Shown here piece after piece: positions 24,218 to 43,431 of a stretch of 64,000 nt of DNA; positions within the stretch are counted from its first letter, which is position 1, and the number at the start of each line of letters is the position of its first letter. The DNA is from an uncultured Rhodobacterales bacterium (GTDB taxonomy: Bacteria; Pseudomonadota; Alphaproteobacteria; Rhodospirillales; Rhodospirillaceae), in the NCBI GenBank assembly GCA_964576515.1, contig CAZNUW010000008.1, positions 36,307 through 100,306 on the forward strand, given 5' to 3'. A program made the position numbers and the translations under genes. A model generated the notes under the pieces. The model was given only the letters and a program-made list of their open reading frames with translations, was not told where the DNA came from and searched no databases.

Positions 24218-24316
24218 GGTTGTGGAAAAATCTCGCGGGAGCCCCCTTCGGATTGACGCTCGGGTTCGCATCAAAACCTCCGTTCCTAAAAATCCAAGAG
24301 TTTGAAGAGTTTCCCC

Positions 24317-24341
24317 GAAACACTTTCTACTTGGCGGCGTT
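24317..24341 (+). promoter_or_regulatory. EcfG-type promoter GAAAC-N16-CGTT upstream of the ECF sigma gene (autoregulation)
   Basis: One mismatch in the -35. The -10 lies 37 nt upstream of the ATG at 24378. Confidence 0.55.
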
Positions 24342-24377
24342 GTAACTACTATCGGGGTTCAAATTCAGGGACGGGCT

Positions 24378-24932: not shown

Positions 24933-25063
24933 ATTGTCCCCTCCTCTGCGCCCGCTTACTATGTCTCGAGCCGAAGGCATCACGCCGCCCACACAAGCCG
25001 CCCTGCCACTAAGCCGCGCAGTTTTCAGTCCCCTTGATTTCCAGAAGTTGCTTTCGACCACTC

Positions 25064-25264
25064 ATGAGTGAGAAATCAAAATCAAAGCCTGACGCCACCG
25101 CGGCTTCACTTCGCCCACAAGCGAAGTTCAATCCCGCATTCGATTCATGGCTGGAAACGAAATTGCACAAGATATTCGATTCCGTCGCCTCCGAACCGCT
25201 GCCGCAAGATCTGGTGAAGCTGCTGGACGATATCGATCAGGCGGAAAAGAAAAAGAAGGGTTAG
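25064..25264 (+). CDS. nepR: NepR-family anti-sigma factor
   Basis: 66 aa with the motif L..K L.KIFDSVASEPLPQDLVKLLDDI, matching the NepR core (..V..EP.P..f..LL..l). Confidence 0.6.
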   Translation: MSEKSKSKPDATAASLRPQAKFNPAFDSWLETKLHKIFDSVASEPLPQDLVKLLDDIDQAEKKKKG

Positions 25265-26836: not shown

Positions 26837-27040
26837 TCAATGAAGGGCTTTCTCCCAGTCCTTGACCTGGCGCTCGGCGGCTTCCTTCTGGATGCCGTAG
26901 CGCTCCTGGATCCGGCCGACGAGCTGGTCGCGCTTTCCAGCGATGACGTCCAAATCATCGTCGGTGAGGTGGCCCCACTTCTCCTGGACCTTTCCCTTAA
27001 TCTGCTTCCAATTGCCGCTCACCTGATCCCAGTTCATCAT
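26837..27040 (-). CDS. csbD: CsbD family general stress protein
   Basis: NWDQV.GNWKQ.KGKV.EKWG.LTDDDLD.I.GKRDQL.G.IQE.YG. Confidence 0.9.
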   Translation of the reverse strand: MMNWDQVSGNWKQIKGKVQEKWGHLTDDDLDVIAGKRDQLVGRIQERYGIQKEAAERQVKDWEKALH

Positions 27041-27055
27041 GTTCTTGACCTTTCT

Positions 27056-29566: not shown

Positions 29567-30149
29567 ATGATGAAACGGACGTTGATTTGGTCGATCGGCC
29601 TGTGCGCAACGCTAGCCCTTTGCGCGCCGGCGCAGGCAGCCTGGTACCGGGGCAATACCCATACGCATTCCTTGAACTCGGATGGCAACGTCGCGCCGGA
29701 CGCGGTCGTGCGCTGGTACCGTGAGCACGGATATCAGTTCGTGGTGATGACCGAACATGAATACATCACCGATGTCGCGCCATTACAGGCGCTGTTCGGC
29801 GCACACGAGCAATTCCTTGGTGCGCGCGGAGCGGTTGTCCCCGGAAGCAATCACGGCGGCGCTGGCGAAGGGCGATTTCTATTCCTCCACCGGCGTCACC
29901 CTCGACGATGTGACGGCGAGCGCCAAGGAAATCGCGATCAAAATCAAAACCGAGATCCGGCCGCGCGTCAGAACCAACGCACGTTTCATGACGCGCTTCA
30001 TCGGCAGAGATGGAAAAGTCCTGGCCGAAGCGCCGGGAACAGAACCGAAGTATGTAATACGCGGCGACGAGGGCTACATCCGCGCGGCGATCACGGACTC
30101 CAACGGACGTAAAGCCTGGACCCAGCCGGTGTTTACATCCCGGAAGTAA
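29567..30149 (+). pseudogene. decayed PHP-family metal-dependent phosphoesterase (internal deletion plus frameshift)
   Basis: Frame 1 gives a signal peptide plus WYRGNTHTHSLNSDGN...WYREHGYQFVVMTEHEY, then nonsense. Frame 3 resumes with LVRAERLSPEAITAALAKGDFYSSTGV...AWTQPVF. The junction is near 29805-29820 and the central catalytic part is missing. Confidence 0.6.
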
Positions 30150-30177
30150 GAAGCGGGCCCTTACGCAGGGCCCGCGC

Positions 30178-31779
30178 CTATTTCACCTCGACCGTTTGCC
30201 CCGGAAGCGGCGGCGTGTTGACCGGCCGCCGGATCGCCTTGGAAGCCTGCTCAAACGCGTACCCAAGCGAAAGCAGCTTCGGTTCGCTGTAAGCTGTGCC
30301 CAGAAACGAAATCGCGACCGGAAGGTCGTCGGTCGTGAAACCGGCCGGGACGACCAGATCGGGGAAGCCGGTCAGCGGCGCGATCACGGAGGATGAGACA
30401 CCGCCGCCGCCGGAGGTCGACGGAGAGCCCGCGATGGCTGCAGGCCGTGTCCGCCCTGTCGGGTAAACGATGGCGTCCAATTTGTCCTTCTGTAGCGTCC
30501 CGTTAATGAGCGCGCGGGCCATCGGCATACCGAAATCATGGGCGGCGATGTATCCGGGATCGGTCATCGCGCCACTCGCTTTCTCGACCTTGAAGAAGTT
30601 CCATCGGAAGGGATTCGGCCCCTCGCCCGTCGGGCGGAGATCGTTGTAGCTTTCAGCGGCCGCGATCAGGCCATCGAGGTCTTTCGGATATTTCGGTGCG
30701 GTCGTTTTCAGATAGTCGCCGATCTGCACCGCGAACTCGGGCGGATAGATCGACCACAGCATCGCCGAGGCCGAATCAACGAACCACTTTGGCAACCGCA
30801 CATCGACAACGGTAGCGCCGGATTTCTGCATGGTCTTGATGGCGGCCTCCACCACCCAATCGACATCCGGATCGGCGCCCAGATAGTCGCGCGCGATGCC
30901 GATCCGGGCGCCCTTCAAGCCGTCGGCGTTCAGGAACTTCGTATAGTCCTTCTGCGCATTGCCTTTCTGCGTCTGTGTGGTGGGATCGGCTTTATCGATA
31001 CCGGCGGTGACGCCCAAGGAAACCGCGATATCGGTGACATTGCGCGTCATCGGTCCGGCCATGTCGAGACTGAGAGACAGCGGGATCACGCCGTCATGAC
31101 TGATGAGGCCGTAGGTCGGGCGCATGCCGACGATACCGTTGGTGGCCGACGGACCGCGGATCGATCCGCCGGTGTCGGTTCCATAGCCGAGCGGCGCATA
31201 TCCCGCCGCGATGCCCACACCCGTCCCTCCGGAGGAGCCAGACGGCGTGCGCGTAAGGTCGTGCGGGTTCAACGACTGCCCGCCCTTTGAACTTTGAAAG
31301 CCGTTCGCGAATTCCCCGAGATTGACCTTGGCCAGGATAATGGCGCCGCCATCGCGCAGTTGCTTCACGAGATGAGCATCGTCCGGCGGCATACTGCCCT
31401 CGAGCAGGACAGATCCGCCTGTCGTCGCGATATCGACGGTATCGATGTTGTCCTTGAAGATGACAGGGATACCATGCAGCGGGCCGCGGACTTTCCCCGC
31501 CTTGCGCTCCGCATCGAGCGCACGGGCGATCTCCATCGCTTTCGGATTGAGGGCGATCACCGCGTGGAGTTTTGGGCCGGCGCGATCATAAGCCGCAATG
31601 CGCGCGAGACACATTTCGGTGAGTTTCTCGGCGGTCAGCGTCCCCGCCGCCATTGCCGCCTGGAGCTCGACGATCGTCGCCTGATCCATCTCGACCGGGC
31701 GCGCCTGCGCCGGCACGGCAACCATGAGAGCGCCGGCGAGCGCGGCCGCCACCGCCAGCATGCTGACTTGTTTCTTCAT
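30178..31779 (-). CDS. exported amidase-signature (Ser-cisSer-Lys) enzyme, paralog A
   Basis: Signal peptide ...AVPAQA, FKDNID (Lys), GSSGGTGV, GTDTGGSIRGPS. Start MKKQVS at 31779. Confidence 0.85.
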   Translation of the reverse strand: MKKQVSMLAVAAALAGALMVAVPAQARPVEMDQATIVELQAAMAAGTLTAEKLTEMCLARIAAYDRAGPKLHAVIALNPKAMEIARALDAERKAGKVRGPLHGIPVIFKDNIDTVDIATTGGSVLLEGSMPPDDAHLVKQLRDGGAIILAKVNLGEFANGFQSSKGGQSLNPHDLTRTPSGSSGGTGVGIAAGYAPLGYGTDTGGSIRGPSATNGIVGMRPTYGLISHDGVIPLSLSLDMAGPMTRNVTDIAVSLGVTAGIDKADPTTQTQKGNAQKDYTKFLNADGLKGARIGIARDYLGADPDVDWVVEAAIKTMQKSGATVVDVRLPKWFVDSASAMLWSIYPPEFAVQIGDYLKTTAPKYPKDLDGLIAAAESYNDLRPTGEGPNPFRWNFFKVEKASGAMTDPGYIAAHDFGMPMARALINGTLQKDKLDAIVYPTGRTRPAAIAGSPSTSGGGGVSSSVIAPLTGFPDLVVPAGFTTDDLPVAISFLGTAYSEPKLLSLGYAFEQASKAIRRPVNTPPLPGQTVEVK

Positions 31780-31792
31780 GTGCGTTTCCCCT

Positions 31793-33394
31793 TTACTTGG
31801 AAGGAACTTCAATGCCGCCGCCCGGAAGCGCCGGCGTGTTCACGGGACGGCGAATGGCCTTCGTCGCCTGTTCAAGACCGTAGGCCAGGCTGATGAGTTT
31901 GCCTTCGCTGAACGCCGGGCCCAGGAAAGAGATAGTCACCGGCAGATCGTCGGTCGTGAAACCGATGGGAAGGATCAGATCGGGGAAACCGGTGAGGTTC
32001 GCGACCGGCATGGGATAGACGCCCGTAGCGAAACTCGGCAACGGATCGGCGATGCGTTCCGGCCGTTTCGGGGTTGTCGGATAGACGATGGCGTCGAGCT
32101 TATCTTTCGCGAACACACCTTGGACCAGCGCCGTCGCCATGGGCATCCCGTAGTCATGCGCGGCGACATATCCGGGATCGGTGAGCGTGCCGCTGTTTTT
32201 TTCCTGGAGGAAGAATGCCCAGCGGTAAGGGTTCACACCCTCACCGTCGGGCCCCAGGCTCGTGTACTCCTGTGAGCGTTCGATCAATTGATCGAGGTTT
32301 TTCGGGTACTTCGGGGCGGTTGTTTTCAGGTAATCGGCGATCTGTACCGCGAATTCCGGTGGATAGATCGACCACAGCATTGAGGTATGGGAGTCGAGGA
32401 ACCACTTCGGGAAACGGACGTCGACGACGGTCGCGCCCGCCTTTTGCATCGCCTTAATCGCCGATTCCATGGCCCAATCGACGTCCGGGTCCGCCCCCAT
32501 GTAATCGCGTTGAACGCCGATACGGGCGCCCTTCAGGCCATTGGCGTTGAGATACTTCGTGTAGTCCTTCTCGAACTTGCCTTGGCTTTTTTTCGTCGCG
32601 TCGTCCGCCGGATCGACACCCGTCATGACGCCCAACGAGATCGCGAGGTCGGTGACGCTGCGTGTCATGGGACCGCCAGTGTCGAGCGACAACGCAAGTG
32701 GGATGATGCCGTCGCGACTGACGAGACCATGGGTCGGCTTCAAGCCGACGATGCCGTTGACGCTGGATGGCCCGCGGATCGATCCACCCGTGTCGGTCCC
32801 CAAACCCAGCGGCGCGTATCCCGCGGCCACCGCGACACCGGTCGCGCCTGATGATCCCGACGGCGTGCGGGTCAGATCGTGCGGGTTGAGAGACTGTCCA
32901 CCCTTCGAGCTTTGCATACCGTTCGCGAATTCACCCAAGTTCACCTTGGCGAGGATGATCGCGCCGCCGTCGCGCAGCTTCTTGACCATGAACGCATCAT
33001 CGGGCGCCATGTGGCCGTCCAACAGGACCGATCCGCCCGTCGTCGGCATATCGACTGTATCGAAATTGTCTTTCAGAACGACGGGAATGCCATGCATGGG
33101 CCCGCGCACTTTGCCCGCTTTACGTTCGGCATCGAGGGCGCGGGCGATCTCGATCGCCCTTGGATTAAGGGCAATGACGGCATGGATTTTCGGCCCCTTG
33201 CGGTCGAAGGCGTCGATGCGCGCGAGAGAGAGTTCGGTGAGCCGTTCCGCCGTCAGCGTGCCGGCCGCCATGGCCGCCTGCAGTTCGGCGATAGTCGCCT
33301 GGTCGAACTCCACCTGCTTTGCGGCCGCCGGAGCGGCGAGCAATGCGCCCGCGAGCGCACAAACGATCGCCAACGTGCTGACCTGCTTTTTCAT
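31793..33394 (-). CDS. exported amidase-signature enzyme, paralog B
   Basis: Signal peptide ...APAAA, LKDNFD, GSSGATGV, GTDTGGSIRGPS. Confidence 0.85.
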   Translation of the reverse strand: MKKQVSTLAIVCALAGALLAAPAAAKQVEFDQATIAELQAAMAAGTLTAERLTELSLARIDAFDRKGPKIHAVIALNPRAIEIARALDAERKAGKVRGPMHGIPVVLKDNFDTVDMPTTGGSVLLDGHMAPDDAFMVKKLRDGGAIILAKVNLGEFANGMQSSKGGQSLNPHDLTRTPSGSSGATGVAVAAGYAPLGLGTDTGGSIRGPSSVNGIVGLKPTHGLVSRDGIIPLALSLDTGGPMTRSVTDLAISLGVMTGVDPADDATKKSQGKFEKDYTKYLNANGLKGARIGVQRDYMGADPDVDWAMESAIKAMQKAGATVVDVRFPKWFLDSHTSMLWSIYPPEFAVQIADYLKTTAPKYPKNLDQLIERSQEYTSLGPDGEGVNPYRWAFFLQEKNSGTLTDPGYVAAHDYGMPMATALVQGVFAKDKLDAIVYPTTPKRPERIADPLPSFATGVYPMPVANLTGFPDLILPIGFTTDDLPVTISFLGPAFSEGKLISLAYGLEQATKAIRRPVNTPALPGGGIEVPSK

Positions 33395-33411
33395 GTCGGT
33401 TTCCCCCTCTT

Positions 33412-35025
33412 CTACTTCTCAGGAACTTCAATCGTGGCGCCCGGCAGCGCCGGCGTGTTGACGGGCCTGCGGATTGCCTTTGTCGCCTGTTCATACGCGT
33501 AACCAAGCGCAAGAAGCTTCGGCTCCGTGAAGGCGGTGCCCGTGAACGAAATCGTCACCGGGAGGTCGTCGGTCGTAAAGCCTACGGGAACAACCAGGTC
33601 CGGGAAGCCGGTAAGATTGCCGATGCCGGTCGGCACACGGCTGATCGCCGGCGGCGGGTTCTGCGGTCCCGCGATCTGCACGACGCGGCGCATCCCGGTC
33701 GGATAAACGATGGTATCGAGTTTATCCTTGGCAAACATGCCTTCGACCAGCGCACGGCTCATCGGCATCCAGTGGTCGCGTAAGGCGATATAGCCCGGGT
33801 CGGTGAGCTGCTCTGCCTTGGCCTCAACGTTCTTGAAGTAAAGCCAACGCGAGAGATTTGGACCCTCGCCCGTCGGACGCAGATCGTTATACGCCTCGGC
33901 CCGCTCGATCAGTTGCGCGAGGTTTTTTGGATACTTGGGCCCAGTGGTCTTCAGGTAATCGCCGATCTGGACCGCGAATTCGGCCGGGTAAAGGGTAAAC
34001 ACCGCGGGCCCGGTCTGATCCAGGAACCACGTGGGATAGCGCACGTCGATCAAGGTCGCGCCCGCCCGCCGCATCGCCTTCAGCGCCGCTTCAAACGCCC
34101 AATCGACATCGGGATCGGCGCCCGTAAAGTCGCGCGCGACGCCGATGCGCGCCCCCTTCAGGGCGTTCGCATCCAGGAACTTGGTGTAATCCTTTTCAAA
34201 CCTTCCCGCGCTTTTCTTGGTAGCGTCGTCGGCGGGATCCACGCCCGCCGTGATTCCCAATGAGACGGCGATGTCATAGACGCTGCGGGTCATAGGACCG
34301 CCGGTATCCAGCGACAACGCCAGGGGAATGATGCCGTCGCGGCTGATGAGACCGTGTGTGGGCTTCAAACCGACAATGCCGTTCACGTTCGAGGGTCCAC
34401 GAATGGACCCGCCGGTGTCGGTCCCATACCCCAACGGCGCGTACCCCGCGGCAATTCCGACGCCCGTACCGCCGGACGAACCGCCGGGGATACGCGTCAG
34501 GTCGTGAGGATTGAGCGATTGCCCCCCCATGGAACTTTGATAGCCGTTGGCGAACTCGCCGAGGTTCACCTTCGCGAGCATGATCGCGCCTGCGTCGCGC
34601 AACTTCTTCACCAGGAAAGCATCGTCGGGCGCCATGCTGCCCTCGAGCAATACCGAACCGCCGGTGGTCGGCATCTCGATGGTGTCGATATTGTCCTTGA
34701 AGATCACAGGAATGCCGTGGAGCGGACCGCGGACTTTGCCCGCCTTGCGTTCGGCATCAAGCTGACGCGCGACCTCGAGCGCTTGCGGGTTGAGCGAGAT
34801 GACCGCATGGAGCTTGGGACCGGCGCGGTCGTACGCCGCGATCCGATCAAGGCAAAGCTGCGTCAGTTTCTCGGCGGTGAGCGTTCCCGCGGCCATCGCC
34901 GCCGACAACTCCGCGATTGTGGCCTGATCGAATTCGACTTGCTTCGCCGCAGCCGGGACGGCCGTCAACAGCGCCGCGCTCATCATGAGCGCGGCAATCG
35001 CATTTTTGTAAGAGGTCATGGCCAC
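33412..35025 (-). CDS. exported amidase-signature enzyme, paralog C
   Basis: Signal peptide ...VPAAA, FKDNID, GSSGGTGV, GTDTGGSIRGPS. Confidence 0.85.
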   Translation of the reverse strand: MAMTSYKNAIAALMMSAALLTAVPAAAKQVEFDQATIAELSAAMAAGTLTAEKLTQLCLDRIAAYDRAGPKLHAVISLNPQALEVARQLDAERKAGKVRGPLHGIPVIFKDNIDTIEMPTTGGSVLLEGSMAPDDAFLVKKLRDAGAIMLAKVNLGEFANGYQSSMGGQSLNPHDLTRIPGGSSGGTGVGIAAGYAPLGYGTDTGGSIRGPSNVNGIVGLKPTHGLISRDGIIPLALSLDTGGPMTRSVYDIAVSLGITAGVDPADDATKKSAGRFEKDYTKFLDANALKGARIGVARDFTGADPDVDWAFEAALKAMRRAGATLIDVRYPTWFLDQTGPAVFTLYPAEFAVQIGDYLKTTGPKYPKNLAQLIERAEAYNDLRPTGEGPNLSRWLYFKNVEAKAEQLTDPGYIALRDHWMPMSRALVEGMFAKDKLDTIVYPTGMRRVVQIAGPQNPPPAISRVPTGIGNLTGFPDLVVPVGFTTDDLPVTISFTGTAFTEPKLLALGYAYEQATKAIRRPVNTPALPGATIEVPEK

Positions 35026-35028
35026 ACC

Positions 35029-36690
35029 CTATTTCTCGGGGATTTCGACCGTGCCGCCGGCAAGCGGCGGCGTATGTACAGGCCGGCGGATCGCTTTCGT
35101 CGCCTGCTCGAAGCTATGTCCCAAGGCCAACAAACGCGGCTCGCTGAAGGCCGGACCGAAGAAGGAAATCGTGACCGGCAGGTCGTCGGTGGTGAAGCCT
35201 GCCGGGACGACGAGATCGGGATACCCTGAGAGGTTTCCTAAGCTACGGGGTGAACGCACGGAGCCCAGCGGCGGTCCGGGCGGCGCCGCGATCAGCTCGG
35301 GACGAACAACGGTGGTCGGATAAACGATGGCGTCCAATTTATCCTTCGCGAAAATTCCATCCAGCAGCGCGCGCGTCATCGGGATGAAGTAATTAAGCAT
35401 CGCATTGTAAACCGGCCCGTCGAGCGGCACGGATTTCGCCTCGACGTTCTTGAAATATTGCCAGCGCGATAAGTTCGGCCCAACCCCATCGGGCCGCAAA
35501 TCGTTGTAGGCCTCCGCGCGCTCGATCAACTGGTCGAGATTCTTGGGATACTTCGGGCCGGTTGTCTTCAGATAGTCGGCGATCTGCGCTTTGAATTCCG
35601 CCGGATACAAGGTGAATACGACCTGGGTCGCGGAATCGAGATACCACTTGGGCAAACGGACTTCCGTAACCGTCGCGCCGGCCTTCTGCATGGCCTTCAG
35701 GGCGGATTCGATCACCCAGTCCACGTCGGGATCGGCACCCGTATAGTCGCGGGCGATCCCAATACGCGCCCCCTTAAGGGCATCCGCCTTCAGGAACTGC
35801 GTGTAATCCTTGTGGAACTTGCCGTCGCTTTTTTTGGTGTACGGATCGGCCGGATCCAGCCCCGTCATGGGCCCTAGCGAAACGGCGATATCATAGACGC
35901 TGCGCGCCATCGGACCGCCCATGTCCAGGGTCAGCGCCAGCGGAATAATGCCGTCGTGACTAAGAAGACCGTGGGTCGGCTTCAACCCAACGATGCCGTT
36001 GACCGAGGACGGCCCACGGATCGAGCCGCCGGTATCGGTCCCCAATCCCAGCGGGGCATAACCCGCCGCAACGGCCACGCCCGTACCGCCGGACGAGCCC
36101 GACGGTGTGCGCGTCAGGTCATGGGGATTCAAGGACTGACCGCCCATGGAGCTCTGCATCCCGTTGGCGAATTCTCCTAGGTTCACTTTGGCGAGAATGA
36201 CAGCCCCGGCATCGCGCAGACGCTTGACCATATTGGCGTCGTCCGGCGCCATATTGCCTTCGAGCAGGACGGAGCCGCCGGTCGTCGGCATGTCGGCCGT
36301 ATCGAAATTGTCCTTCAAGACGACCGGGATACCGTGGAGCGGGCCGCGAACCTTGCCGGCCTTACGTTCCGCGTCGAGGGCGCGCGCAATCTCGAGCGCG
36401 TTGGCGTTGAGGGCGATCACGGCGTGAAGCTTGGGGCCCGCCCTGTCATAAGCGGCGATGCGATCCAGGCAAAGCTGAGTGAGTTTCTCCGCCGTAAGGG
36501 TCCCGGCGGTCATGGCCGCGGCAAGATCGGCGATCGTTGCCTGATCGAATTCGACGGATTTCGCCGACGCCGGCGCACCGGCGAAGAGCGCACCCGCGAG
36601 GGCGGCCATAGATACAAATCGGGCGGTAGCGTGTCTTTTCACGGCGTGAATCCCCCAATGTCCAACGGATACTAAAGCGTTGTTTGTCAT
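35029..36690 (-). CDS. exported amidase-signature enzyme, paralog D
   Basis: Signal peptide ...APASA, LKDNFD, GSSGGTGV, GTDTGGSIRGPS. GTG at 36642 (VKRHATARF...) with a GGGGGA RBS is a plausible true start. Confidence 0.85.
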   Translation of the reverse strand: MTNNALVSVGHWGIHAVKRHATARFVSMAALAGALFAGAPASAKSVEFDQATIADLAAAMTAGTLTAEKLTQLCLDRIAAYDRAGPKLHAVIALNANALEIARALDAERKAGKVRGPLHGIPVVLKDNFDTADMPTTGGSVLLEGNMAPDDANMVKRLRDAGAVILAKVNLGEFANGMQSSMGGQSLNPHDLTRTPSGSSGGTGVAVAAGYAPLGLGTDTGGSIRGPSSVNGIVGLKPTHGLLSHDGIIPLALTLDMGGPMARSVYDIAVSLGPMTGLDPADPYTKKSDGKFHKDYTQFLKADALKGARIGIARDYTGADPDVDWVIESALKAMQKAGATVTEVRLPKWYLDSATQVVFTLYPAEFKAQIADYLKTTGPKYPKNLDQLIERAEAYNDLRPDGVGPNLSRWQYFKNVEAKSVPLDGPVYNAMLNYFIPMTRALLDGIFAKDKLDAIVYPTTVVRPELIAAPPGPPLGSVRSPRSLGNLSGYPDLVVPAGFTTDDLPVTISFFGPAFSEPRLLALGHSFEQATKAIRRPVHTPPLAGGTVEIPEK

Positions 36691-36926
36691 CCCCCTGCCG
36701 GCCGGATTGCCCGGTCGCGCGCAAGAAGCTTACGCCGCACCGCACACAAATCGCTAGCCCTCTCGAACTCCGGTTTTCCTAAAGCAATTCGCGCATGCGC
36801 CACCGGGCCAAACGCCGATACGCTGCATGATTTATCCCGATATCACTGCGAAAAAGCCCCAGTTTCGCCATCGGCGCCGCGTTTTACGTCCAGGACCATT
36901 GGACGTCACCGGGACGGGGCTCACTC

Positions 36927-37154
36927 ATGCGCGAACTCGACTTGAACGGACTGGCGCACCCGCTTTCCACGCAGTTCACGGAAAGCGAGATCGCGCGTAC
37001 CGCGATCCTTCTCGTGCAGCGCTACGGGACCAGCGCTCTCGATTATGCGCGGCAACGCTGCCTGGAAGCCGTGAAGGTCGACGATGCGAGAGGCGCAGAG
37101 ATTTGGCAAAGGATCATCGACGCCCTGCAGCGCGCCGAAGGAGCCTTCCATTAG
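36927..37154 (+). CDS. 75-aa helical hypothetical protein
   Basis: GC3-biased ORF, ...IARTAILLVQRYG..A..YA..R.LEA...DD..G..IWQRIIDAL. Its 3' end overlaps the fbpB stop by 4 nt (convergent). Confidence 0.4.
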   Translation: MRELDLNGLAHPLSTQFTESEIARTAILLVQRYGTSALDYARQRCLEAVKVDDARGAEIWQRIIDALQRAEGAFH

Positions 37155-38827
37155 CGCGCGGGGTCACTCTCGGGCGGACGGCTCATCTTGGCCAGCATAA
37201 CCACCGGCAATATCCCAAGTAAGACGATTGCCAGGGCCGCGAGACTACCGTCCTCATATGTTCCCCGCGCGGCTTCTCCATAAAGAAGCGTCGCGAGGGT
37301 TTCAAAGTTGAGCGGCCGCAACAGGAGAGTCGCGGAAAGCTCTTTCATGCAATCCACAAAAACAAGCATGGCGGCCGCGCCGATGGCGGGACGAAGCAGC
37401 GGCAAATGAACACGTCGAAGGACACCCGAGGCCGTTTCGCCCAGCGTACGCCCCGCATGATCGAGCGAAAGCGATATCCTCGTAAAACCCGCCTCGATCC
37501 CGCCTGCGGAAATGGCGAGGAAGCGCACGACATAGGCATAAATGAGAGCCGCGCCCGACGACAGGAAGACAAGGCCGACGATCACGCCGAAAAGTCCCTC
37601 CGAGACCGCATTGATCATTCTGTCGACCGCCGCGATGGGACCAAGCAAACCGATCGCTAGGACCGTGCCTGGAATCGCATAACCCAGAGATGCGATCCGG
37701 AAGATCGTCCGTGCGCCGCCACCCGTTTGAAGGCGGGCGAAATAGGCGAGCGTCAGACCGAGGATCACCGTAAGACCGGCCGCGACCGCCGACAGCAGGA
37801 ACGTATTGAAAGCCGCCTCAAGCAAATGGGACGAAATTCCCGCGAACGACGCCCGGCGCCACGCGGTGACCACGAGATGGAGCGCGGGAAGGCCGAATCC
37901 CAACAACACCGGACTTACAACAAGCGCAAAGACGCCCCAACCCTTCAGGCCAAGGACACGTTGCGCCTCAAGACGGCGCGGCTTCTGGGCGGCCACCGCG
38001 TAGGCAAGCCGGCGGCGGAACCAACGCTCCGCGATGACCAGGGCAACCACGATGGCGAGCATGAACAGCGCGATTTGCGCGGCTCCGGCCAGATCGGAGC
38101 GTGTGACCCAGGTGGTGTACACGGCAACCGTCATCGTACGCACGCCCAAGAATTCGGACGCCCCGATATCGTTCAAGGCTTCCATGAGGGCGAGACTGGC
38201 GCCTATCGCCACCGCCGGCCGCGCCAGCGGCAGCGCGACTTTGAAAAAGACAGCCGCGCGCCCGGCACCCAGCGTGCGCGCGGCCTCGATCAGGCTTGCC
38301 GACTGCATCAGGAAAAGGGAGCGCGTTGTGAGATAGACATAGGGATACAGCGCGAATCCCATAAGGAGAATGCATCCGGCCATCGAGCGGGGATCCGGCA
38401 AGCGCAGATCCTGCGGATTGGAGATCCCGGCCATGTCGCGGATGAACGATTGCACAGGTCCAACGGGATGCAGAACGTCAAGGTAAGCATAAGCGATGAT
38501 ATAGGTGGGCATGGCCAGGGGCAGCAGAAGCGCCCAGTCCAGCCACCCACGCCCGGGGAAGTCGTAGGCCGAAACAAGCCATGCCGCCCCCGCCCCGACG
38601 ACGACGGTGACCACACCGACGCCGACCAGCAGGACAGCGGTATCCGCCGCGGCCTGGGGTAGGACATAAGCCGCCAGATGCGGCCATAAGCCGGCGGACG
38701 GGCCCGCGGCGACGACCGCGAGGGCCGCCACCGGCAACAGCACCAAAAAAGCCGCGAGAACCGAGAGAGCGGTCCATCCGCCCGCGGAGGCGTTTCCGCG
38801 CGACGGATGGACGACGGGCGGTGTCAC
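37151..38827 (-). CDS. fbpB: iron(III)-type ABC transporter permease (fused two-domain)
   Basis: 558 aa, about 12 TM segments, two EAA-like loops (EAARTLGAG..., LDHAGRTLGE...). Confidence 0.8.
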   Translation of the reverse strand: MTPPVVHPSRGNASAGGWTALSVLAAFLVLLPVAALAVVAAGPSAGLWPHLAAYVLPQAAADTAVLLVGVGVVTVVVGAGAAWLVSAYDFPGRGWLDWALLLPLAMPTYIIAYAYLDVLHPVGPVQSFIRDMAGISNPQDLRLPDPRSMAGCILLMGFALYPYVYLTTRSLFLMQSASLIEAARTLGAGRAAVFFKVALPLARPAVAIGASLALMEALNDIGASEFLGVRTMTVAVYTTWVTRSDLAGAAQIALFMLAIVVALVIAERWFRRRLAYAVAAQKPRRLEAQRVLGLKGWGVFALVVSPVLLGFGLPALHLVVTAWRRASFAGISSHLLEAAFNTFLLSAVAAGLTVILGLTLAYFARLQTGGGARTIFRIASLGYAIPGTVLAIGLLGPIAAVDRMINAVSEGLFGVIVGLVFLSSGAALIYAYVVRFLAISAGGIEAGFTRISLSLDHAGRTLGETASGVLRRVHLPLLRPAIGAAAMLVFVDCMKELSATLLLRPLNFETLATLLYGEAARGTYEDGSLAALAIVLLGILPVVMLAKMSRPPESDPAR

Positions 38828-39862
38828 TTAGTTATCGAGGCCGACCTTGTCGACCAGTTGGCTGGCGGTTTTACGATGCTTCGCAATATCACCGATGGGC
38901 GTCGTATCGACCTTCAGCGTCCCGAGTTTGGCGATGATGGGATCGATCGGCGCGCCGGCTTTCACCGGATACTCGTAATTCGATTCCGCGTAGATTTTCT
39001 GCGCCGCATCCGAGACCAGGTACTCCATGAGCTTGACGGCATTGTCGCGGTTCGGGGCCGTTTTGGCGACCGCCGCGCCTGAAACGTTGACATGTGTGCC
39101 CGCGCCGTCGCTGAACGTCGGCAGGATCACATTGATCGCCGCGCCCCACTTTTCCTGGTCGGGACCGCCCTTCCCGCTGCGCATCAAACCAACATAATAG
39201 GAGTTCGCGACGCCGACATCGCAAATGCCGCCCATGATGTCGCGCGCGACATCGCGGTCGCCGCCACCCGGTTTACGGCCCGCATTGGCCTTGATCCCGC
39301 GCAGCCACTCCTCGGTTTTCGCCTCGCCGTGCTTGGCGATAAACGCGGCGATCATGGCCGTGTTGTACGGATGCTGACCGGCGCGAATACATACCTTGCC
39401 CTTCCACTTCGGGTCGGCCAGTTCTTCATAGGTAAAGGCCGTCTGCTTCACACGATCCTTGGAAACATAGGCAACGCGGCCACGCATGGACAAGGTGTAC
39501 CAGTGACCGGCCGGATCGCGGAGTTGCGGCGGCACGGCGCTATCGAGCACGCTGGACTTGATGGGTTGCGTCAGGCCTTTTTCCGCGAGATCAACAAGAC
39601 CGCTCAGATCGACAGTCATGAGAATATCGGCCGGTGAGAGTTTGCCTTCGGCGGCGACACGTTCGGCGATCCCTTCCTTCACGAACACGGCGTTCACCTT
39701 GATGTTGTTCGCCTTGGAGAAGGCGTCCAGCAGCGGCTGGATAAGGCCCGGCTCGCGCGTGGTGTAAAGGTTCACTTCCCGTGCGGAAGCCGGAAGCGCG
39801 AAGGCGCCCGCGAGCGCGACGCCGGCGGTAGCGCCGAAGCGGCGAATCATAGTGGTGAGCAT
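38828..39862 (-). CDS. fbpA: Fe(3+) ABC transporter substrate-binding protein
   Basis: Signal peptide, then VNLYTTRE..L..PLLDAF......KVN pattern of the FbpA/AfuA/FutA family. Confidence 0.75.
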   Translation of the reverse strand: MLTTMIRRFGATAGVALAGAFALPASAREVNLYTTREPGLIQPLLDAFSKANNIKVNAVFVKEGIAERVAAEGKLSPADILMTVDLSGLVDLAEKGLTQPIKSSVLDSAVPPQLRDPAGHWYTLSMRGRVAYVSKDRVKQTAFTYEELADPKWKGKVCIRAGQHPYNTAMIAAFIAKHGEAKTEEWLRGIKANAGRKPGGGDRDVARDIMGGICDVGVANSYYVGLMRSGKGGPDQEKWGAAINVILPTFSDGAGTHVNVSGAAVAKTAPNRDNAVKLMEYLVSDAAQKIYAESNYEYPVKAGAPIDPIIAKLGTLKVDTTPIGDIAKHRKTASQLVDKVGLDN

Positions 39863-39866
39863 GACT

Positions 39867-40853
39867 TTATCTCCCAGGTGTTGTTGCGTGATGGTTTGAA
39901 AAAGTAATCAAGTCCGCGGGCGCGTAAGACACGCCGACCTCATCGCCGGTTCTCAACGATACGTTCCCGCGCACGCTGGCTTTGAGCGGCGCACGGTCCG
40001 CCGGACCGGCGAGTGTGATGAGCGTGTTCTCGCCGGTATAAGAAATCTCGACGACCCGGAATTGCGCGGTGGTGGCGTCCGCGACAAGCGCGATGTCATG
40101 AGGGCGGATATAGGCCGGCCCCGCATCTCCGGGAAGTTCATTCAAATCCGAAAAATAGCGGGCTGCGAACAAAGAACGCGGAGAGCGATAGAGCTCCGCC
40201 GGTGTCCCCACCTGTTCGACACGTCCGTCGTGCAACAGCACGATACGATCCGCCAGCATCATCGCTTCTTCCGGATCGTGCGTGACGATCACGGCGGTGG
40301 TTTGCGTTTCGCGGAGCAGGCCAAGGGTCATGCGGCGCACGTCGTCGCGCGTACCGGCATCGAGATTGGAGAACGGTTCGTCCATGAGCAGGAGAGATGG
40401 TCCCGCGACGAGCGCGCGCACCAGCGCCGCGCGCTGCTGCTCGCCGGCCGACAGCGTATGAGGGTAGCGATGAGCCGTGTGGGCGAGACCGACCCGCGTA
40501 AGCAGCGCGGTCGCCGTGGCGCCGGACGCTTTGCGGCCGAAAATCGCGTTCTCATACGTCGTCAGATGCGGGAACAGCGCATAATCCTGGAACATCATGC
40601 CGATACCGCGCTGTTCAGGCGGCACGAAGGTTGCCGGTCCGGAGAGTTCCTGCCCGCCAACGATGATTCGGCCGCTTTGGGGCCGTTCAAGACCGGCGAT
40701 CAGGCGAAGCATCGTCGTCTTGCCGCACCCGGAGCGCCCGAGCAGGCACACAACTTCTCCAGCGGCGGCATTGAAGGAAACACGGTCAAGAACGGCGCGC
40801 GGACCGTAGCCGTGCGTCAGATCGGTGATTTCGAGGTAGGCCGCCGGTCTCAT
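39867..40853 (-). CDS. fbpC: ABC transporter ATP-binding protein (iron(III)-type)
   Basis: Walker A GRSGCGKTT, signature LSAGEQQR, Walker B LLLMDEP, and a C-terminal TOBE-like domain. Confidence 0.85.
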   Translation of the reverse strand: MRPAAYLEITDLTHGYGPRAVLDRVSFNAAAGEVVCLLGRSGCGKTTMLRLIAGLERPQSGRIIVGGQELSGPATFVPPEQRGIGMMFQDYALFPHLTTYENAIFGRKASGATATALLTRVGLAHTAHRYPHTLSAGEQQRAALVRALVAGPSLLLMDEPFSNLDAGTRDDVRRMTLGLLRETQTTAVIVTHDPEEAMMLADRIVLLHDGRVEQVGTPAELYRSPRSLFAARYFSDLNELPGDAGPAYIRPHDIALVADATTAQFRVVEISYTGENTLITLAGPADRAPLKASVRGNVSLRTGDEVGVSYAPADLITFSNHHATTPGR

Positions 40854-40927
40854 CGTTCAGCCCATTTATATCGGAAACAGATGATGGAGGGCGGCGTTGG
40901 CGCACCGCCCTCCACTATAGAGGTATC

Positions 40928-43237
40928 CTAGAACGCCGCGACGGCCGTAAGCAGGAAATTCCGGCCCGGCCCCAACAATACGCGTTGCGCCGGCCAGTTG
41001 GTCGAGACGGCGTAGAACTCATTGGTAATATTGTCGACGTTGACCCGCAGGCGGAGCGCCGGCGTGACTTCATATTCCGCCATCACATTCGCCACGATGT
41101 AGCTCGGCAGTTCGCCGACGAGGCCGTTTGGAATGATGCGTTCGGCATCATCCGGACGCCCCACCCACGAGGCGCCGGTGTACTGGATGCCGCCGCCCAA
41201 CGTGAGCCCCATGGGCAAACGATAGCTGGTCCAGATATTGGCGTTGGTATCGGGCGAGAACGCCAGTTCATTGCCGTTCGTTTGCCGCACCAGGCCGTAG
41301 TCGCCCGGGTTGGCGAGGCGACGGCCCTCGTCCAGCAGATCGCTATGTTTGCGCTTGCTGTCCATGATCAACAGGCCGCCGAAGACCGTCCAAGCCGGTG
41401 TGATCTGACCAGCCAGGCCGAATTCAGCCCCTTGCACGATCTGCTTCCCATAGCCCAGGAGGGCAACCGGCGGCACCGGCGTGATGTTCGGCGCGATGCC
41501 GGTCATGGCGACGTTGCGGCGTTCGGTGCGGAACAGCGCCGCGGTGGCGTTCAACAGATTGTCGGCGAACGACCACTTGGTGCCGAGTTCGTAGTTGAGC
41601 GAGTACTGCACTTTCGAGGTCGCGCTGTTCATCCCCGCGCTGAAACCCGGGAACGCGTTATCGCCTTCGCGCGATACGTCGGTGTTCGACAGGAACGAAC
41701 CCGGCGGCAGCGACGACACGCCGATGGCGGCGTAGAAGCTTCCGGTTTCCGCCGGTTTATAGACAGCGCCGATTTTCCCGCCGACGGTCGTGCGCGAGAG
41801 ATCATAGGTATCGGGGCCCTGCGGGGCGCCGGCCACCGTGCTGGAGTCGATTTCAACGCTGTAGCGTTCGACCCGCAAACCACCGGTGACCTGCCACTGC
41901 GGAGAGAACTCCATCGTGTCGTAAGCGTAGACCGCGATCGTATTGACGCGCACTTCGCTGACCTGAGTCGCTGTGAAGGACGGCAAACCCGCGCGGTTCG
42001 CATTGGGGTTGAACACGCTGATCGGCGCGTTCGTACCCGGATTGGTCTGCGCGGGGAAACGTTCGGCGGACGATTCTTCGCGCTGGAACTCGATCCCGGC
42101 CGAGAACGTATGGCCGACGCTACCGGCCTCGAACGTACCGGTCAGGTTGGTCAGGTTAGAGATGGAGGTATTTTCGCGCGCCGACGCCTGGCGTTGGGTC
42201 GCCACAGTTTGTGTGGCGGCGGCGTAGCTGTTGATCAGCGTATAGACGGTTTCACGGTCCGTCTTCGACCAACGCGTTTGGTTGCTGATCGTGAAACCAT
42301 TCGCGAAGTCGTGCTCGACGCGTCCCAGGACGGCATCGGCGAAAACCAGGTCGTAATCGGTGGACAGGCCGTAGAATTCGTCGCGCAAATCCTTGCCGTT
42401 TAAATTCTGATCATAGCGGAACATCCCTTCCATGAAAGCGCCCGGCACACCCCAATCCGGCAAGTCGTCCTGCTCGGTATGCTGGTAGGAAAGAATGAAG
42501 CGGGTCGGCTGGTTCAAGCCTAATGCAACGGAAGGCGCGATGCCCCAACCATCGCGGCGCGCCACGGAACGCCCGGCCACACCCCCGTCCTGCCACATGG
42601 CGTTCAAGCGCACCGCTGCGCTCTCGGACAAGGGTTGGTTGACGTCCACCGACGTACGGATACGGTTCTTTGAATCGTACTCGTCAAAACCGAAGCTCGC
42701 GAGCGCCGAAGCCGATGCCGTGAGGTTCGGCGTTTTCGTGATGAGATTGACGTAACCGCCCGCGCTGCCACGGCCATTGTCGGCGGCAGGTCCCTTGGCG
42801 ACTTCCACTTGCTCTAGATTGAAAACGTCGCGGCTGTAACTTCCGGAATCGCGCACGCCGTCAATGAAGATGCTGCCGGCGCTATCGAAACCGCGCATGG
42901 AGAAATTCGACAGACCGCTCGTGAATCCATTCTCGCCGGCGTTGAAGGTGATGCCCGGCGTGTTGCGCAGCACGTCGGTCAGGTTCTGTGCGCCTTGCTG
43001 CAAGAACACATCCTGCGGAATGACGGCGATCGTCTGCGGCGTATCGATGATCGGCGCGGTCTGCTTGGTGGACAACGGCTCGAGATTGAGTGGCGCGTCT
43101 TCCTCGATCCCGACCGGCGGGACGGCGAGCGGTTGATCCGCGGCGCTTGCAAATGCCGGCGCGAGGCCGATACCGAGGGCCGTCGCGGCGAGCAAACGGG
43201 CGCGAAAGGACGCCGACGACGTGAATGGAAGAGCCAT
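40928..43237 (-). CDS. TonB-dependent siderophore receptor
   Basis: Signal peptide, plug motifs (TPQTIAVIPQDVF, LTDVLRNTPGITF, SMRGFDS.GSIFIDGVRD) and a beta-barrel ending ...LLTAVAAF. Confidence 0.9.
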   Translation of the reverse strand: MALPFTSSASFRARLLAATALGIGLAPAFASAADQPLAVPPVGIEEDAPLNLEPLSTKQTAPIIDTPQTIAVIPQDVFLQQGAQNLTDVLRNTPGITFNAGENGFTSGLSNFSMRGFDSAGSIFIDGVRDSGSYSRDVFNLEQVEVAKGPAADNGRGSAGGYVNLITKTPNLTASASALASFGFDEYDSKNRIRTSVDVNQPLSESAAVRLNAMWQDGGVAGRSVARRDGWGIAPSVALGLNQPTRFILSYQHTEQDDLPDWGVPGAFMEGMFRYDQNLNGKDLRDEFYGLSTDYDLVFADAVLGRVEHDFANGFTISNQTRWSKTDRETVYTLINSYAAATQTVATQRQASARENTSISNLTNLTGTFEAGSVGHTFSAGIEFQREESSAERFPAQTNPGTNAPISVFNPNANRAGLPSFTATQVSEVRVNTIAVYAYDTMEFSPQWQVTGGLRVERYSVEIDSSTVAGAPQGPDTYDLSRTTVGGKIGAVYKPAETGSFYAAIGVSSLPPGSFLSNTDVSREGDNAFPGFSAGMNSATSKVQYSLNYELGTKWSFADNLLNATAALFRTERRNVAMTGIAPNITPVPPVALLGYGKQIVQGAEFGLAGQITPAWTVFGGLLIMDSKRKHSDLLDEGRRLANPGDYGLVRQTNGNELAFSPDTNANIWTSYRLPMGLTLGGGIQYTGASWVGRPDDAERIIPNGLVGELPSYIVANVMAEYEVTPALRLRVNVDNITNEFYAVSTNWPAQRVLLGPGRNFLLTAVAAF

Positions 43238-43263
43238 TGGAATGAATCCTATAAGTAAGTGAG

Positions 43264-43278: not shown

Positions 43279-43431
43279 CTTACTTTGAGATTCATACTTA
43301 AGAACAGCGAATTAGGGTAACAGGCGTGCAACTTCGCCGGAGCGTTGCCCCGGTGCACACTTTGCCCCAATTGTTACACGTCACTCGCCCGAATGTAACA
43401 CGACCGCCGGTTTCGCCAGAGATTGCTCGCT

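What the first reader, a model, noticed from the sequence alone, without database searches (positions are those of the whole stretch)
30178..36690. Four tandem, co-directional, signal-peptide-bearing amidase-signature paralogs
Four ORFs of 533-553 aa (30178-31779, 31793-33394, 33412-35025, 35029-36690, all minus strand) are packed with 13-, 17- and 3-nt spacers.
- Each begins with a cleavable-looking signal peptide (AxA, then K/R-x-VE-F/M-DQATI).
- Each retains the complete Ser-cisSer-Lys catalytic apparatus (KDN, GSSG, GGSIRGPS).

Amidase-signature enzymes are mostly cytoplasmic, like the unrelated copy at 14629-15999. A four-fold periplasmic or exported array, apparently kept intact and active, suggests selection for breadth or dosage toward extracellular amide substrates.

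The array lies directly downstream, on the same strand, of a Fur-boxed TonB receptor and fbpCAB operon. One speculative role is periplasmic hydrolysis of amide-linked siderophores or other imported amides. Nitrogen scavenging is an alternative.
Basis: partly seen in the sequence, partly recalled or inferred. Interest (0 to 1): 0.7.

Follow-up and report, generated by a model that had tools for sequence, protein, structure and literature searches.

The report
Operon of four exported Pam-like amidases
Four neighbouring genes encode diverged, apparently exported (probably periplasmic) amide-splitting enzymes related to a known periplasmic peptide amidase; relatives keep the array as a self-contained operon, and it shows no conserved tie to the iron-uptake genes beside it.

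Summary
Four co-directional amidase-signature (PF01425) genes lie at 30178-36690 on the minus strand. Each has a Sec-type signal peptide and an intact Lys/cis-Ser/Ser triad.

One correction: the first gene most likely starts at the conserved GTG at 36642, not the ATG at 36690.

- **Closest relative:** the closest solved relative is Pam, the Stenotrophomonas maltophilia peptide amidase (about 40% identity). By my recollection of the literature Pam is periplasmic, so an exported amidase of this family is not new.
- **Age of the copies:** they are about 70% identical, show no gene conversion, and each has its own positional orthologue in sister Rhodospirillaceae genomes. dN/dS is 0.03-0.07. Copy number in relatives is 2, 3 or 4, always in the same order.
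- **Iron link:** not supported. No orthologous array lies next to the siderophore receptor/ABC operon. Five relatives carry a LysR gene there instead, and the array has its own conserved 13-nt 5' motif and a terminator-like hairpin.
- **Wider pattern:** arrays of 3-7 such amidases recur in Opitutaceae, Nevskiales and Rhodospirillaceae. Many sit directly behind large non-siderophore TonB-dependent receptors.

Most likely role: periplasmic hydrolysis of varied small amides for nutrient scavenging. The substrates are unknown.

The parts
35029..36642 (-). Amidase copy 4, first gene of the operon. Signal peptide MKRHATARFVSMAALAGALFAGAPASA|KSVEFDQ, encoded at 36562-36642.
   Evidence: ORF. PF01425 E 8e-101. 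The GTG start with a GGGGGA ribosome-binding site is conserved in L002, L004 and L028, and also in L007 and L016 where the register is shifted by 1-20 nt. The ATG at 36690 lies in a window-specific insertion. Orthologues are 87-90% identical in L002, L004, L007, L008. dN/dS 0.044-0.060.
33412..35025 (-). Amidase copy 3 (537 aa from the GTG; an alternative ATG lies two codons in). Signal peptide ...AALLTAVPAAA|KQVEFDQ, encoded at 34945-35025.
   Evidence: Orthologues are 92-95% identical in L002, L004, L006, L007 and absent from L008, L001, L005. dN/dS 0.027-0.033.
31793..33394 (-). Amidase copy 2 (533 aa). Signal peptide MKKQVSTLAIVCALAGALLAAPAAA|KQVEFDQ, encoded at 33320-33394.
   Evidence: 40% identical to Pam over the whole mature length. 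AlphaFold model pTM 0.80, with Pam structures 1M21/1M22 as the best PDB matches, TM-score 0.73-0.80. GAGGGGGA ribosome-binding site. dN/dS 0.039-0.074.
30178..31779 (-). Amidase copy 1, last gene (533 aa). Signal peptide MKKQVSMLAVAAALAGALMVAVPAQA|RPVEMDQ, encoded at 31702-31779.
   Evidence: AGGGGA ribosome-binding site. Orthologues are 88-90% identical in seven loci. dN/dS 0.035-0.053.
36726..36738 (-). Invariant 13-mer GCGGCGTAAGCTT in the 5' control region of the array. Function unproven; it could be a promoter, operator or leader element.
   Evidence: It occurs exactly once, just upstream of the first array gene, in the window and in L002/L003, L004, L005, L007, L008, L016 and L028. It is absent from the other 70 loci. 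In the window there is 1 match against 0.13 expected. No Rfam family matches here.
30153..30175 (-). Terminator-like hairpin GCGGGCCC-TGCGTAA-GGGCCCGC followed by a T-rich tail, starting 3 nt after the stop codon of copy 1. Probable end of the operon.
   Evidence: 9 base pairs, 8 of them G-C. The sequence is shown.

Best explanation
The locus is a self-contained four-gene operon. It most likely runs from a conserved 5' element at 36726-36738 to a terminator-like hairpin at 30153-30175. The genes are packed with 3-17-nt spacers, and a G-rich Shine-Dalgarno-like sequence precedes three of the four starts (weaker before copy 3).

Each gene encodes a precursor of about 535 aa. By inference, a 25-27-aa Sec signal peptide takes the precursor across the inner membrane and signal peptidase I cuts after AxA. 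That releases a soluble periplasmic enzyme of about 508 aa with the amidase-signature fold.

By homology to Pam, catalysis uses the Ser-cisSer-Lys triad (S206/S182/K109 in copy-1 numbering). An acyl-enzyme forms, the amide C-N bond is split, and ammonia (or an amine) and a carboxylate are released.

The four copies are ancient paralogues, kept separately and with different residues fixed around the active site. They most likely cover different small amide substrates, with peptide or amino-acid carboxamides as the lead by analogy with Pam. The products would feed nitrogen or carbon scavenging in a freshwater or activated-sludge Rhodospirillaceae-like bacterium.

Expression is probably substrate-inducible, because relatives have an adjacent LysR regulator. 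It appears independent of the neighbouring siderophore-receptor/ABC iron operon.

**Shown:** gene structure, family, triad, orthology, purifying selection, lack of conserved linkage to the iron genes.

**Inferred:** export, periplasmic location, operon boundaries, divergent specificity, physiological role.
For: - **Family and fold:** PF01425 full length. Pam is the best solved relative, E about 1e-94 and 40% identity, and the best structural match.
- **Triad:** columns invariant, aligned to Pam K123/S202/S226.
- **Export:** canonical n/h/c regions with AxA. Pam's crystallised chain index is offset by 37 from the literature numbering, and its residue 1 aligns 3 residues before the predicted cleavage site. 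184 of 197 family ORFs have signal-like N-termini, and some acidobacterial members have Tat-like RREFIAAT leaders.
- **Operon:** spacers and ribosome-binding sites, hairpin, conserved 13-mer.
- **Independence from the iron genes:**
- **LysR next to the array** in L002, L005, L007, L008, L016.
- **Long-term retention of distinct copies:** positional orthologues and tree, dN/dS 0.03-0.07, no shared tract longer than 20 nt, 55 group-specific fixed sites including 107/108 (IF vs VL, next to K109) and 199 (Y vs L, before S206).
- **Scavenging context elsewhere:** large TonB-dependent receptors lie directly upstream of family arrays in 10-11 loci, with ExbB/ExbD/TonB, asparaginase and creatininase genes nearby.
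Against: - No signal-peptide predictor could be run, and there are no localisation data.
- Identity to Pam is only 40%. All four copies score 459-467 bits against NF006006, below its 534-bit equivalog cut-off. Peptide-amide specificity therefore cannot be transferred.
- The AlphaFold model is weak around the active site (pLDDT below 50 for residues 153-188 and 200-207), so no pocket analysis was possible.
- dS is 1.1-1.5, near saturation, so the dN/dS values are approximate.
- The window lacks the LysR gene and the orthologous arrays lack an adjacent TonB receptor, so neither regulation nor the uptake route is established for this locus.
- The promoter scan found no sigma-70 consensus on the minus strand upstream of the array.
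Confidence: 0.65

Rival explanations
1. Iron-linked role. The amidases would act with the upstream siderophore-type TonB receptor and the fbp-like ABC transporter, under Fur control, to hydrolyse amide-linked siderophores in the periplasm.
For: The genes are on the same strand, about 4.1 kb downstream of a true siderophore-class receptor: TIGR01783 scores 231 bits against a 223.5-bit cut-off, and the best match is Fiu-like. An SBP_bac_6/fused-permease/TOBE ABC system follows it. An operator-like 11-bp inverted repeat overlaps the receptor's start region.
Against: None of the orthologous arrays (L001, L002, L004, L005, L007, L008, L016, L028) has this block. The flanks on either side are syntenic. 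A 460-nt gap with a convergent ORF showing coding-like GC3 separates the two. No Fur-like site lies before the array, and the best site near the receptor is 13/19. The array carries its own conserved 5' motif. The receptors found next to family arrays elsewhere are a different, 917-993-aa class sharing only plug-level similarity with this one.
Confidence: 0.05
2. Dosage. The four copies are functionally redundant and are kept only to raise the amount of one enzyme activity.
For: The catalytic core (residues 76-225) is nearly invariant among the copies. Copy number varies between relatives (2, 3 or 4), as expected if individual copies are dispensable.
Against: The copies are about 70% identical with saturated dS and no conversion tracts. 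Each copy is conserved separately across genomes under strong purifying selection. 55 sites are fixed differently between copies, including residues flanking the catalytic Lys and Ser.
Confidence: 0.1
3. Xenobiotic or polymer degradation. The enzymes would act on synthetic amides or carbamates found in wastewater, such as polyacrylamide side chains, nylon oligomers or urethanes.
For: Several close relatives appear, judging by their isolate names, to come from activated-sludge genomes. Amidase-signature enzymes include nylon-oligomer hydrolase and urethanases, which appear as more distant structural matches.
Against: Equally close relatives appear, again from isolate names, to come from lakes and reservoirs. 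The deep, multi-phylum spread of the paralogues predates synthetic polymers. The known xenobiotic enzymes are far more distant than Pam.
Confidence: 0.1
4. Signal or antibiotic inactivation. Periplasmic hydrolysis of N-acyl-homoserine lactones, amidated peptide antibiotics or similar bioactive amides would serve defence or interference rather than nutrition.
For: Amidase-signature quorum-quenching enzymes exist (PMC3676327, listed). A periplasmic location would suit interception of incoming molecules.
Against: The locus has no resistance, efflux or immunity genes. Arrays of up to seven copies behind nutrient-type TonB receptors, with asparaginase and creatininase genes nearby, fit catabolism better.
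Confidence: 0.07

Closest known systems
Peptide amidase Pam of Stenotrophomonas maltophilia (PDB 1M21, 1M22, 5AC3)
   Same: It is the best sequence match (E about 1e-94, full length) and the best structural match (TM-score 0.73-0.80). It has the same Lys/cis-Ser/Ser triad and single-domain amidase-signature fold. It is made with an N-terminal leader that is missing from the crystallised chain (offset 37). Its mature N-terminus aligns with the predicted cleavage sites here.
   Different: Identity is only 40%. Pam has an extra loop of about 7 residues (FRGNDSISGW) and different residues after the nucleophile (GSIVCPA against GSIRGPS). The Xanthomonadales-type relatives seen here occur as single genes (L072, L073, L077), not as a four-copy array. 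Pam's peptide C-terminal-amide specificity was not tested for these proteins.
NCBIfam NF006006 (PRK08137) 'amidase' equivalog and NF005300 (PRK06828) subfamily
   Same: These are the top-scoring curated families, aligned over nearly the full profile length.
   Different: The scores (459-467 and 377-400 bits) fall below the curated cut-offs (534 and 494). The four proteins therefore lie outside the named equivalogs.
[quoted passage not shown]
   Same: In other genomes the same amidase family forms arrays directly behind 917-993-aa TonB-dependent receptors. This is seen in L022, L024, L025, L032, L042, L060-L063 and L078, with ExbB/ExbD/TonB in L057. That is the architecture of such loci. The comparison with CUT/PUL loci rests on my own knowledge.
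   Different: The hydrolases here are amidases, not glycosidases. The window's own array and its orthologues have no such receptor beside them, and the only nearby receptor is of the siderophore class and is not conserved there.
GatA (Glu/Asp-tRNA amidotransferase subunit A)
   Same: It belongs to the same superfamily. Database names given to some homologues say 'glutamyl-tRNA amidotransferase' (P0093).
   Different: TIGR00132 scores 240-260 bits against a cut-off of 481. The signal peptides and the absence of gatB/gatC neighbours argue against it. That label is a misannotation for this clade.
Periplasmic type II asparaginase / glutaminase-asparaginase
   Same: It is a functional analogue: a periplasmic enzyme that releases ammonia from amides for nitrogen scavenging (own knowledge). 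Asparaginase genes flank two of the family arrays elsewhere.
   Different: It has an unrelated fold and catalytic mechanism. No such gene lies next to the window's array.

Membership tests
Amidase-signature (AS) superfamily, Pfam PF01425 | Full-length match to the family profile above the gathering score | tested here: met
   312-339 bits against a cut-off of 27, profile positions 2-445 of 445, for all four copies.
Amidase-signature (AS) superfamily, Pfam PF01425 | Ser-cisSer-Lys catalytic triad and the Gly/Ser-rich signature | tested here: met
   K109, S182 and S206 and the GSSG and GGSIRGPS motifs are invariant in the four copies. They align to Pam K123/S202/S226.
Amidase-signature (AS) superfamily, Pfam PF01425 | AS fold | tested here: met
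   AlphaFold model pTM 0.80. All 50 listed Foldseek PDB matches are amidase-signature enzymes, with Pam first. Local confidence around the active site is low.
Pam-like exported peptide amidases | Closest characterised relative is Pam, aligned over the whole mature protein | tested here: met
   E 7e-95 to 2e-94, query residues 22-523. 40% identity.
Pam-like exported peptide amidases | Cleavable N-terminal export signal | tested here: inconclusive
   Rule-based only: n/h/c regions, AxA at -3/-1, and no twin-arginine or lipobox motif. SignalP and experiments were not available.
Pam-like exported peptide amidases | Curated equivalog score (NF006006/PRK08137) | tested here: not met
   459-467 bits against a cut-off of 534.
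Pam-like exported peptide amidases | Selective hydrolysis of peptide C-terminal carboxamides | not testable with these tools
   This needs enzymology.
GatA amidotransferase | TIGR00132 equivalog score and a cytoplasmic GatCAB context | tested here: not met
   240-260 bits against 481. Signal peptides are present and there are no gatB/gatC genes nearby.
Fur-regulated siderophore utilisation locus | Conserved genetic linkage of the hydrolase genes to the receptor/ABC genes | tested here: not met
   The receptor/ABC block is absent beside every orthologous array.
Fur-regulated siderophore utilisation locus | Fur box upstream of the hydrolase genes | tested here: not met
   No site with 7 or fewer mismatches to the 19-mer consensus in 36680-37160. 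The best site near the receptor start is 13/19. The E. coli consensus may not apply in Alphaproteobacteria.
TonB-receptor-coupled hydrolase locus (CUT/PUL-like) | TonB-dependent transporter gene directly adjacent to, and co-oriented with, the hydrolase genes | tested here: not met
   Not met for the window or its orthologues. Met for 10-11 other loci of the same amidase family.

The most novel reading that the evidence does not exclude
The window's operon may be one instance of an undescribed, widespread type of locus. These would be multi-copy arrays (2-7 genes) of exported Pam-like amidases, often placed directly behind large non-siderophore TonB-dependent receptors and sometimes beside asparaginase or creatininase genes. 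They occur in freshwater and sludge Rhodospirillaceae, Opitutaceae and Nevskiales.

Such loci would work like polysaccharide-utilisation loci, but for amides. A diverse pool of natural amide compounds (a large part of dissolved organic nitrogen, by my own knowledge) would be imported across the outer membrane. A panel of specificity-diverged periplasmic amidases would then deamidate them and release ammonium.
Probability: 0.3. Interest if true: 0.6.

Novelty: new member of a known kind. Interest (0 to 1): 0.35.

Why it matters
The proteins themselves are new, uncharacterised members of the exported Pam branch of a well-known enzyme family, so taken alone the locus is fairly ordinary.

The comparison adds one thing. 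Long-lived, specificity-diverged arrays of these periplasmic amidases recur across three phyla of freshwater and sludge bacteria, often coupled to TonB-dependent outer-membrane transporters. Five full-text searches on these themes found no description of this.

If these arrays prove to be amide-scavenging loci, they would be a concrete genetic handle on how heterotrophs reach the amide fraction of dissolved organic nitrogen. They would also be a ready-made panel of naturally diversified, secretion-competent amidases for biocatalysis; Pam is already engineered for peptide C-terminal chemistry.

The result also corrects a tempting inference from adjacency: the iron-uptake operon next door is a lineage-specific neighbour, not a partner.

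Tried and rejected
- **Exact-sequence look-up of copy 2**: not on record, so the source genome could not be identified.
- **Nucleotide synteny with relatives**: only the amidase genes align, at about 79%. Protein-level synteny was needed.
- **Fur-box scan**: nothing upstream of the array, and only a 13/19 site at the receptor.
- **Sigma-70 promoter scan**: no hit on the minus strand upstream of the array.
- **Sigma-54 reading of the semi-conserved TGGCGG-N5-GTGC before the 13-mer**: rejected for this window, because the window and L028 have AG instead of the essential GG at -24.
- **EcfG (general stress) promoter GGAAC-N16-17-CGTT:** no fit by eye in the alignment.
- **Rfam**: no riboswitch or leader. 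Only sub-threshold noise (JUMPstart at 20.8 bits against 35).
- **Gene conversion between copies**: longest identical tract 20 nt, so rejected.
- **Lipoprotein or Tat export:** no lipobox (only copy 2 has a Cys, in a poor IVC context) and no twin-arginine motif in the four leaders.
- **Literature searches** for tandem or secreted amidase-signature enzymes, TonB-linked periplasmic amidases, and amidases with dissolved organic nitrogen: nothing relevant. The statement that Pam is periplasmic with a 37-residue leader rests on my memory of Neumann & Kula 2002. It is supported here only indirectly, by the numbering offset.
- **Flank analysis of arrays in other taxa**: no inner-membrane transporter is consistently linked.


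Full report

Yes. One search lists four minus-strand ORFs at 30178-31779, 31793-33394, 33412-35025 and 35029-36690, with spacers of 13, 17 and 3 nt. All four match Pfam PF01425 (Amidase) over the whole profile, E 1e-93 to 1e-101.

A four-way alignment gives 69-73% pairwise identity. The columns for KDN (K109-N111 in copy-1 numbering), GSSG (181-184) and GGSIRGPS (204-211) are invariant.

The N-termini have one to three basic residues, a 12-17-residue hydrophobic core, a Pro, and then AxA followed by (K/R)xVE(F/M)DQATI.

One correction concerns copy 4. An alignment of the upstream regions of six genomes, together with direct reading, shows two things. The ATG at 36690 lies in a roughly 50-nt insertion specific to this window. 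The start that is conserved in the other genomes and has a GGGGGA ribosome-binding site is the GTG at 36642. Copy 4 is therefore probably 537 aa, with a standard 27-aa leader.

The separate amidase at 14629-15999 is also PF01425 and has no leader.

**2. What the proteins are**

The best curated family is NF006006/PRK08137 'amidase'. It scores 459-467 bits, below its 534-bit cut-off. GatA (TIGR00132) scores only 240-260 against 481.

[quoted passage not shown] Identity is 40%. An AlphaFold model of copy 2 has pTM 0.80 and mean pLDDT 72, and is weak around the active site. It finds Pam as the top PDB match, TM-score 0.73-0.80.

A review gives Pam's catalytic residues as Lys123, Ser202 and Ser226 (PMC11732141). 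In the crystallised chain these are positions 86, 165 and 189 (counted). That is an offset of 37, which fits my recollection that Pam is made with a 37-residue leader and is periplasmic.

Pam's first mature residue aligns with residue 23 of copy 2. That is three residues before the predicted AAA|KQ cleavage site.

So an exported amidase-signature enzyme has a clear precedent. Across the 77 related loci fetched, 184 of 197 full-length family ORFs have a start codon followed by a hydrophobic stretch just before the mature domain. Most of the remaining 13 also look like Sec or Tat leaders. Export appears to be a trait of the whole clade.

**3. Operon structure and neighbours**

G-rich Shine-Dalgarno-like sequences precede the starts of copies 1, 2 and 4; the one before copy 3 is weaker. 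A G+C-rich hairpin with a T-rich tail begins 3 nt after the last stop codon, at 30175-30153.

Upstream lie a permease (37151-38827), a solute-binding protein (38828-39862), an ABC ATPase (39867-40853) and a TonB-dependent receptor (40928-43279). The receptor is a true siderophore-class receptor: TIGR01783 scores 231 bits against a 223.5-bit cut-off, and it is Fiu-like.

Four points argue against a functional link between this block and the array:
- A 460-nt gap separates the permease from the array. It holds a 75-aa plus-strand ORF (36927-37154) that converges on the permease gene and has coding-like GC1/2/3 values.
- No Fur-like site lies in the gap. The best site near the receptor matches only 13 of 19 positions.
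- The block from 36730 to 43300 has no counterpart next to the orthologous arrays in sister genomes, although the genes on both sides are syntenic. Five relatives (L002, L005, L007, L008, L016) carry a co-oriented LysR gene there. Others carry a 398-aa protein or a GNAT gene.
- An invariant 13-mer, GCGGCGTAAGCTT (window 36726-36738), occurs exactly once per genome, always just upstream of the first array gene. This holds even in L005, where the array starts with copy 2. It occurs nowhere else in the window or in the other 70 loci.

The array therefore has its own conserved control region. No Rfam family matches it.

**4. History of the copies**

A genome-collection scan plus ORF/BLAST parsing shows the same array, in the same order 4-3-2-1, in Rhodospirillaceae metagenome-assembled genomes. 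Their isolate names point to activated sludge and lakes. Each copy is 85-95% identical to its positional counterpart and only about 70% identical to the other copies.

Copy number varies:

| Copies | Loci |
|---|---|
| 4 | L002/L003, L004, L007 |
| 3 (copy 3 missing) | L008 |
| at least 3 | L006 |
| 2 (copies 2 and 1 only) | L001, L005 |

A neighbour-joining tree of 198 family members groups each window copy with its positional orthologues.

dN/dS against orthologues is 0.03-0.07 for every copy. dS is 1.1-1.5, so the values are approximate. Between paralogues dN is about 0.2 and dS is saturated. The longest identical nucleotide tract between copies is 20 nt, so there is no recent gene conversion.

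55 alignment columns are fixed within each orthologue group but differ between groups. They concentrate at 226-275 and 326-475. They also include residues flanking the catalytic Lys (107/108, IF against VL) and preceding the nucleophile (199, Y against L). At five sites copies 1 and 3 share one state and copies 2 and 4 share the other.

This pattern fits divergent specificities better than plain dosage.

**5. The wider pattern**

The same sister genomes carry further arrays of three or four copies (L010, L011, L014, L017, L036) and single genes. That makes at least eight family members in one genome.

Arrays of 3-7 copies also occur in Opitutaceae (seven consecutive genes in Horticoccus, L025; also L031, L034, L038, L048, L078). 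They occur in Nevskiales and related Gammaproteobacteria too (L039, L044, L047, L057, L060).

In 10-11 loci a 917-993-aa TonB-dependent receptor lies directly upstream on the same strand. It has a Plug domain and is not of the siderophore class. These loci are L022, L024, L025, L032, L042, L060-L063 and L078, plus L019 where it lies downstream. Four more loci have one within 6 kb, with ExbB/ExbD/TonB genes in L057.

These receptors share only plug-level similarity with the window's receptor. Other flanking genes are heterogeneous. They include more distant amidases, two asparaginases, a creatininase and an amidohydrolase.

Many arrays start at contig ends, so the receptor count is a lower bound. 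The loci are also not phylogenetically independent; they represent perhaps four or five lineages.

**6. Most likely mechanism**

The locus is a four-gene operon with its own 5' element and terminator. It encodes Sec-exported, signal-peptidase-I-processed periplasmic hydrolases of about 508 aa that use the Ser-cisSer-Lys triad to split amide bonds.

The copies probably differ in substrate range. Peptide or amino-acid carboxamides are the lead by analogy with Pam. At 40% identity, and below the equivalog cut-off, that specificity cannot be transferred.

Nutrient scavenging is the most economical role: ammonia release in the periplasm, possibly with use of the acid product. It is supported only by context in other genomes.

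Gene structure, family, triad, orthology, selection and the lack of conserved linkage to the iron genes are shown. Export, location, operon limits, specificity divergence and physiological role are inferred.

**7. Comparison with what is known, and novelty**

The proteins are new, uncharacterised members of the exported Pam branch of the amidase-signature family. They are not GatA, although some database names say so. They do not form a siderophore system.

Five full-text searches found no description of tandem exported amidase arrays or of their coupling to TonB receptors. For this window I rate it a new member of a known kind, with moderate interest.

The more novel reading is a widespread class of TonB-coupled 'amide utilisation loci'. 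It is not excluded, but it is unproven, and the window's own array does not show the coupling.

Noticed in passing
window 36726-36738 (-); L002 6711-6723, L004 5090-5102, L005 2372-2384, L007 6705-6717, L008 6710-6722, L016 443-455, L028 2832-2844: An invariant 13-mer, GCGGCGTAAGCTT, lies just upstream of the first gene of the orthologous amidase array in every genome that has it, even though the flanks have diverged. It is preceded by a semi-conserved GGnCT(G/A)GCG. Its function (promoter, operator or leader) is unknown, and no Rfam family matches.
   Followed up: partly
window copies 1-4, residues 107, 108, 199, 258, 259 (copy-1 numbering): At five sites fixed within each orthologue group, copies 1 and 3 share one state (I, F, Y, T, A) and copies 2 and 4 share the other (V, L, L, M, T). 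Three of these sites lie next to the catalytic Lys or Ser. The alternating pattern along the array does not match the overall tree and remains unexplained.
   Followed up: partly
L025 6977-21332; L078 4765-16523; L060 3453-19958; L061 2114-15261; L062 7170-14790; L024 5099-13155; L022 4127-12208: Large (917-993 aa) non-siderophore TonB-dependent receptor genes lie directly in front of arrays of 2-7 exported amidases of this family in Opitutaceae, Solimonas and Rhodospirillaceae. In the loci examined, two asparaginase genes and single creatininase, ExbD and TonB-C genes occur near such arrays.
   Followed up: partly
window 43253-43285: A perfect 11-bp inverted repeat, AAGTAAGTGAG-N11-CTCACTTACTT, sits in an AT-rich patch overlapping the first possible start (GTG 43279) of the siderophore receptor gene and upstream of an in-frame ATG at 43237. 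It looks like an operator but matches the E. coli Fur box at only 13 of 19 positions.
   Followed up: partly
window 36927-37154 (+): A 75-aa ORF convergent with the permease gene and divergent from the amidase array. Its codon-position GC values look coding, but it has no Pfam or NCBIfam hit and no counterpart in the related loci.
   Followed up: partly
window 29567-30149 (+): Two overlapping ORFs encode pieces of a signal-peptide-bearing protein with a GNTHTHS motif that resembles a PHP-type metal-binding motif (my reading; Pfam found no domain). The homologue in L004 has about 440 nt more between the two pieces, so the window's copy looks truncated or frameshifted.
   Followed up: partly
window 22412-23200 (-), about 24300-25260, 26837-27055: An alphaproteobacterial general-stress-response locus (PhyR, plus regions matching the ECF sigma factor and NepR genes annotated in L002, and CsbD) lies 3-8 kb downstream of the array and is syntenic in the relatives. 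No EcfG-type promoter was seen before the array.
   Followed up: partly
window 46105-48012 (-), 12596-14005 (+), 14629-15999 (-): Elsewhere in the window there is a second, smaller TonB-dependent receptor, an Amt ammonium transporter and a leaderless (cytoplasmic) amidase-signature enzyme. No link to the array was established.
   Followed up: no
L006, L012, L013, L018, L019, L020, L022, L066: Contigs labelled 'Candidatus Marinimicrobia' carry amidase arrays up to 90-95% identical to those of the window and the Rhodospirillaceae genomes. The bins are probably mislabelled or contaminated.
   Followed up: no
L071 9926-11572; L075 7476-9077: Acidobacterial members of the family have twin-arginine-type leaders (MKRREFIAAT...) instead of Sec leaders, so the export route varies within the clade.
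   Followed up: no
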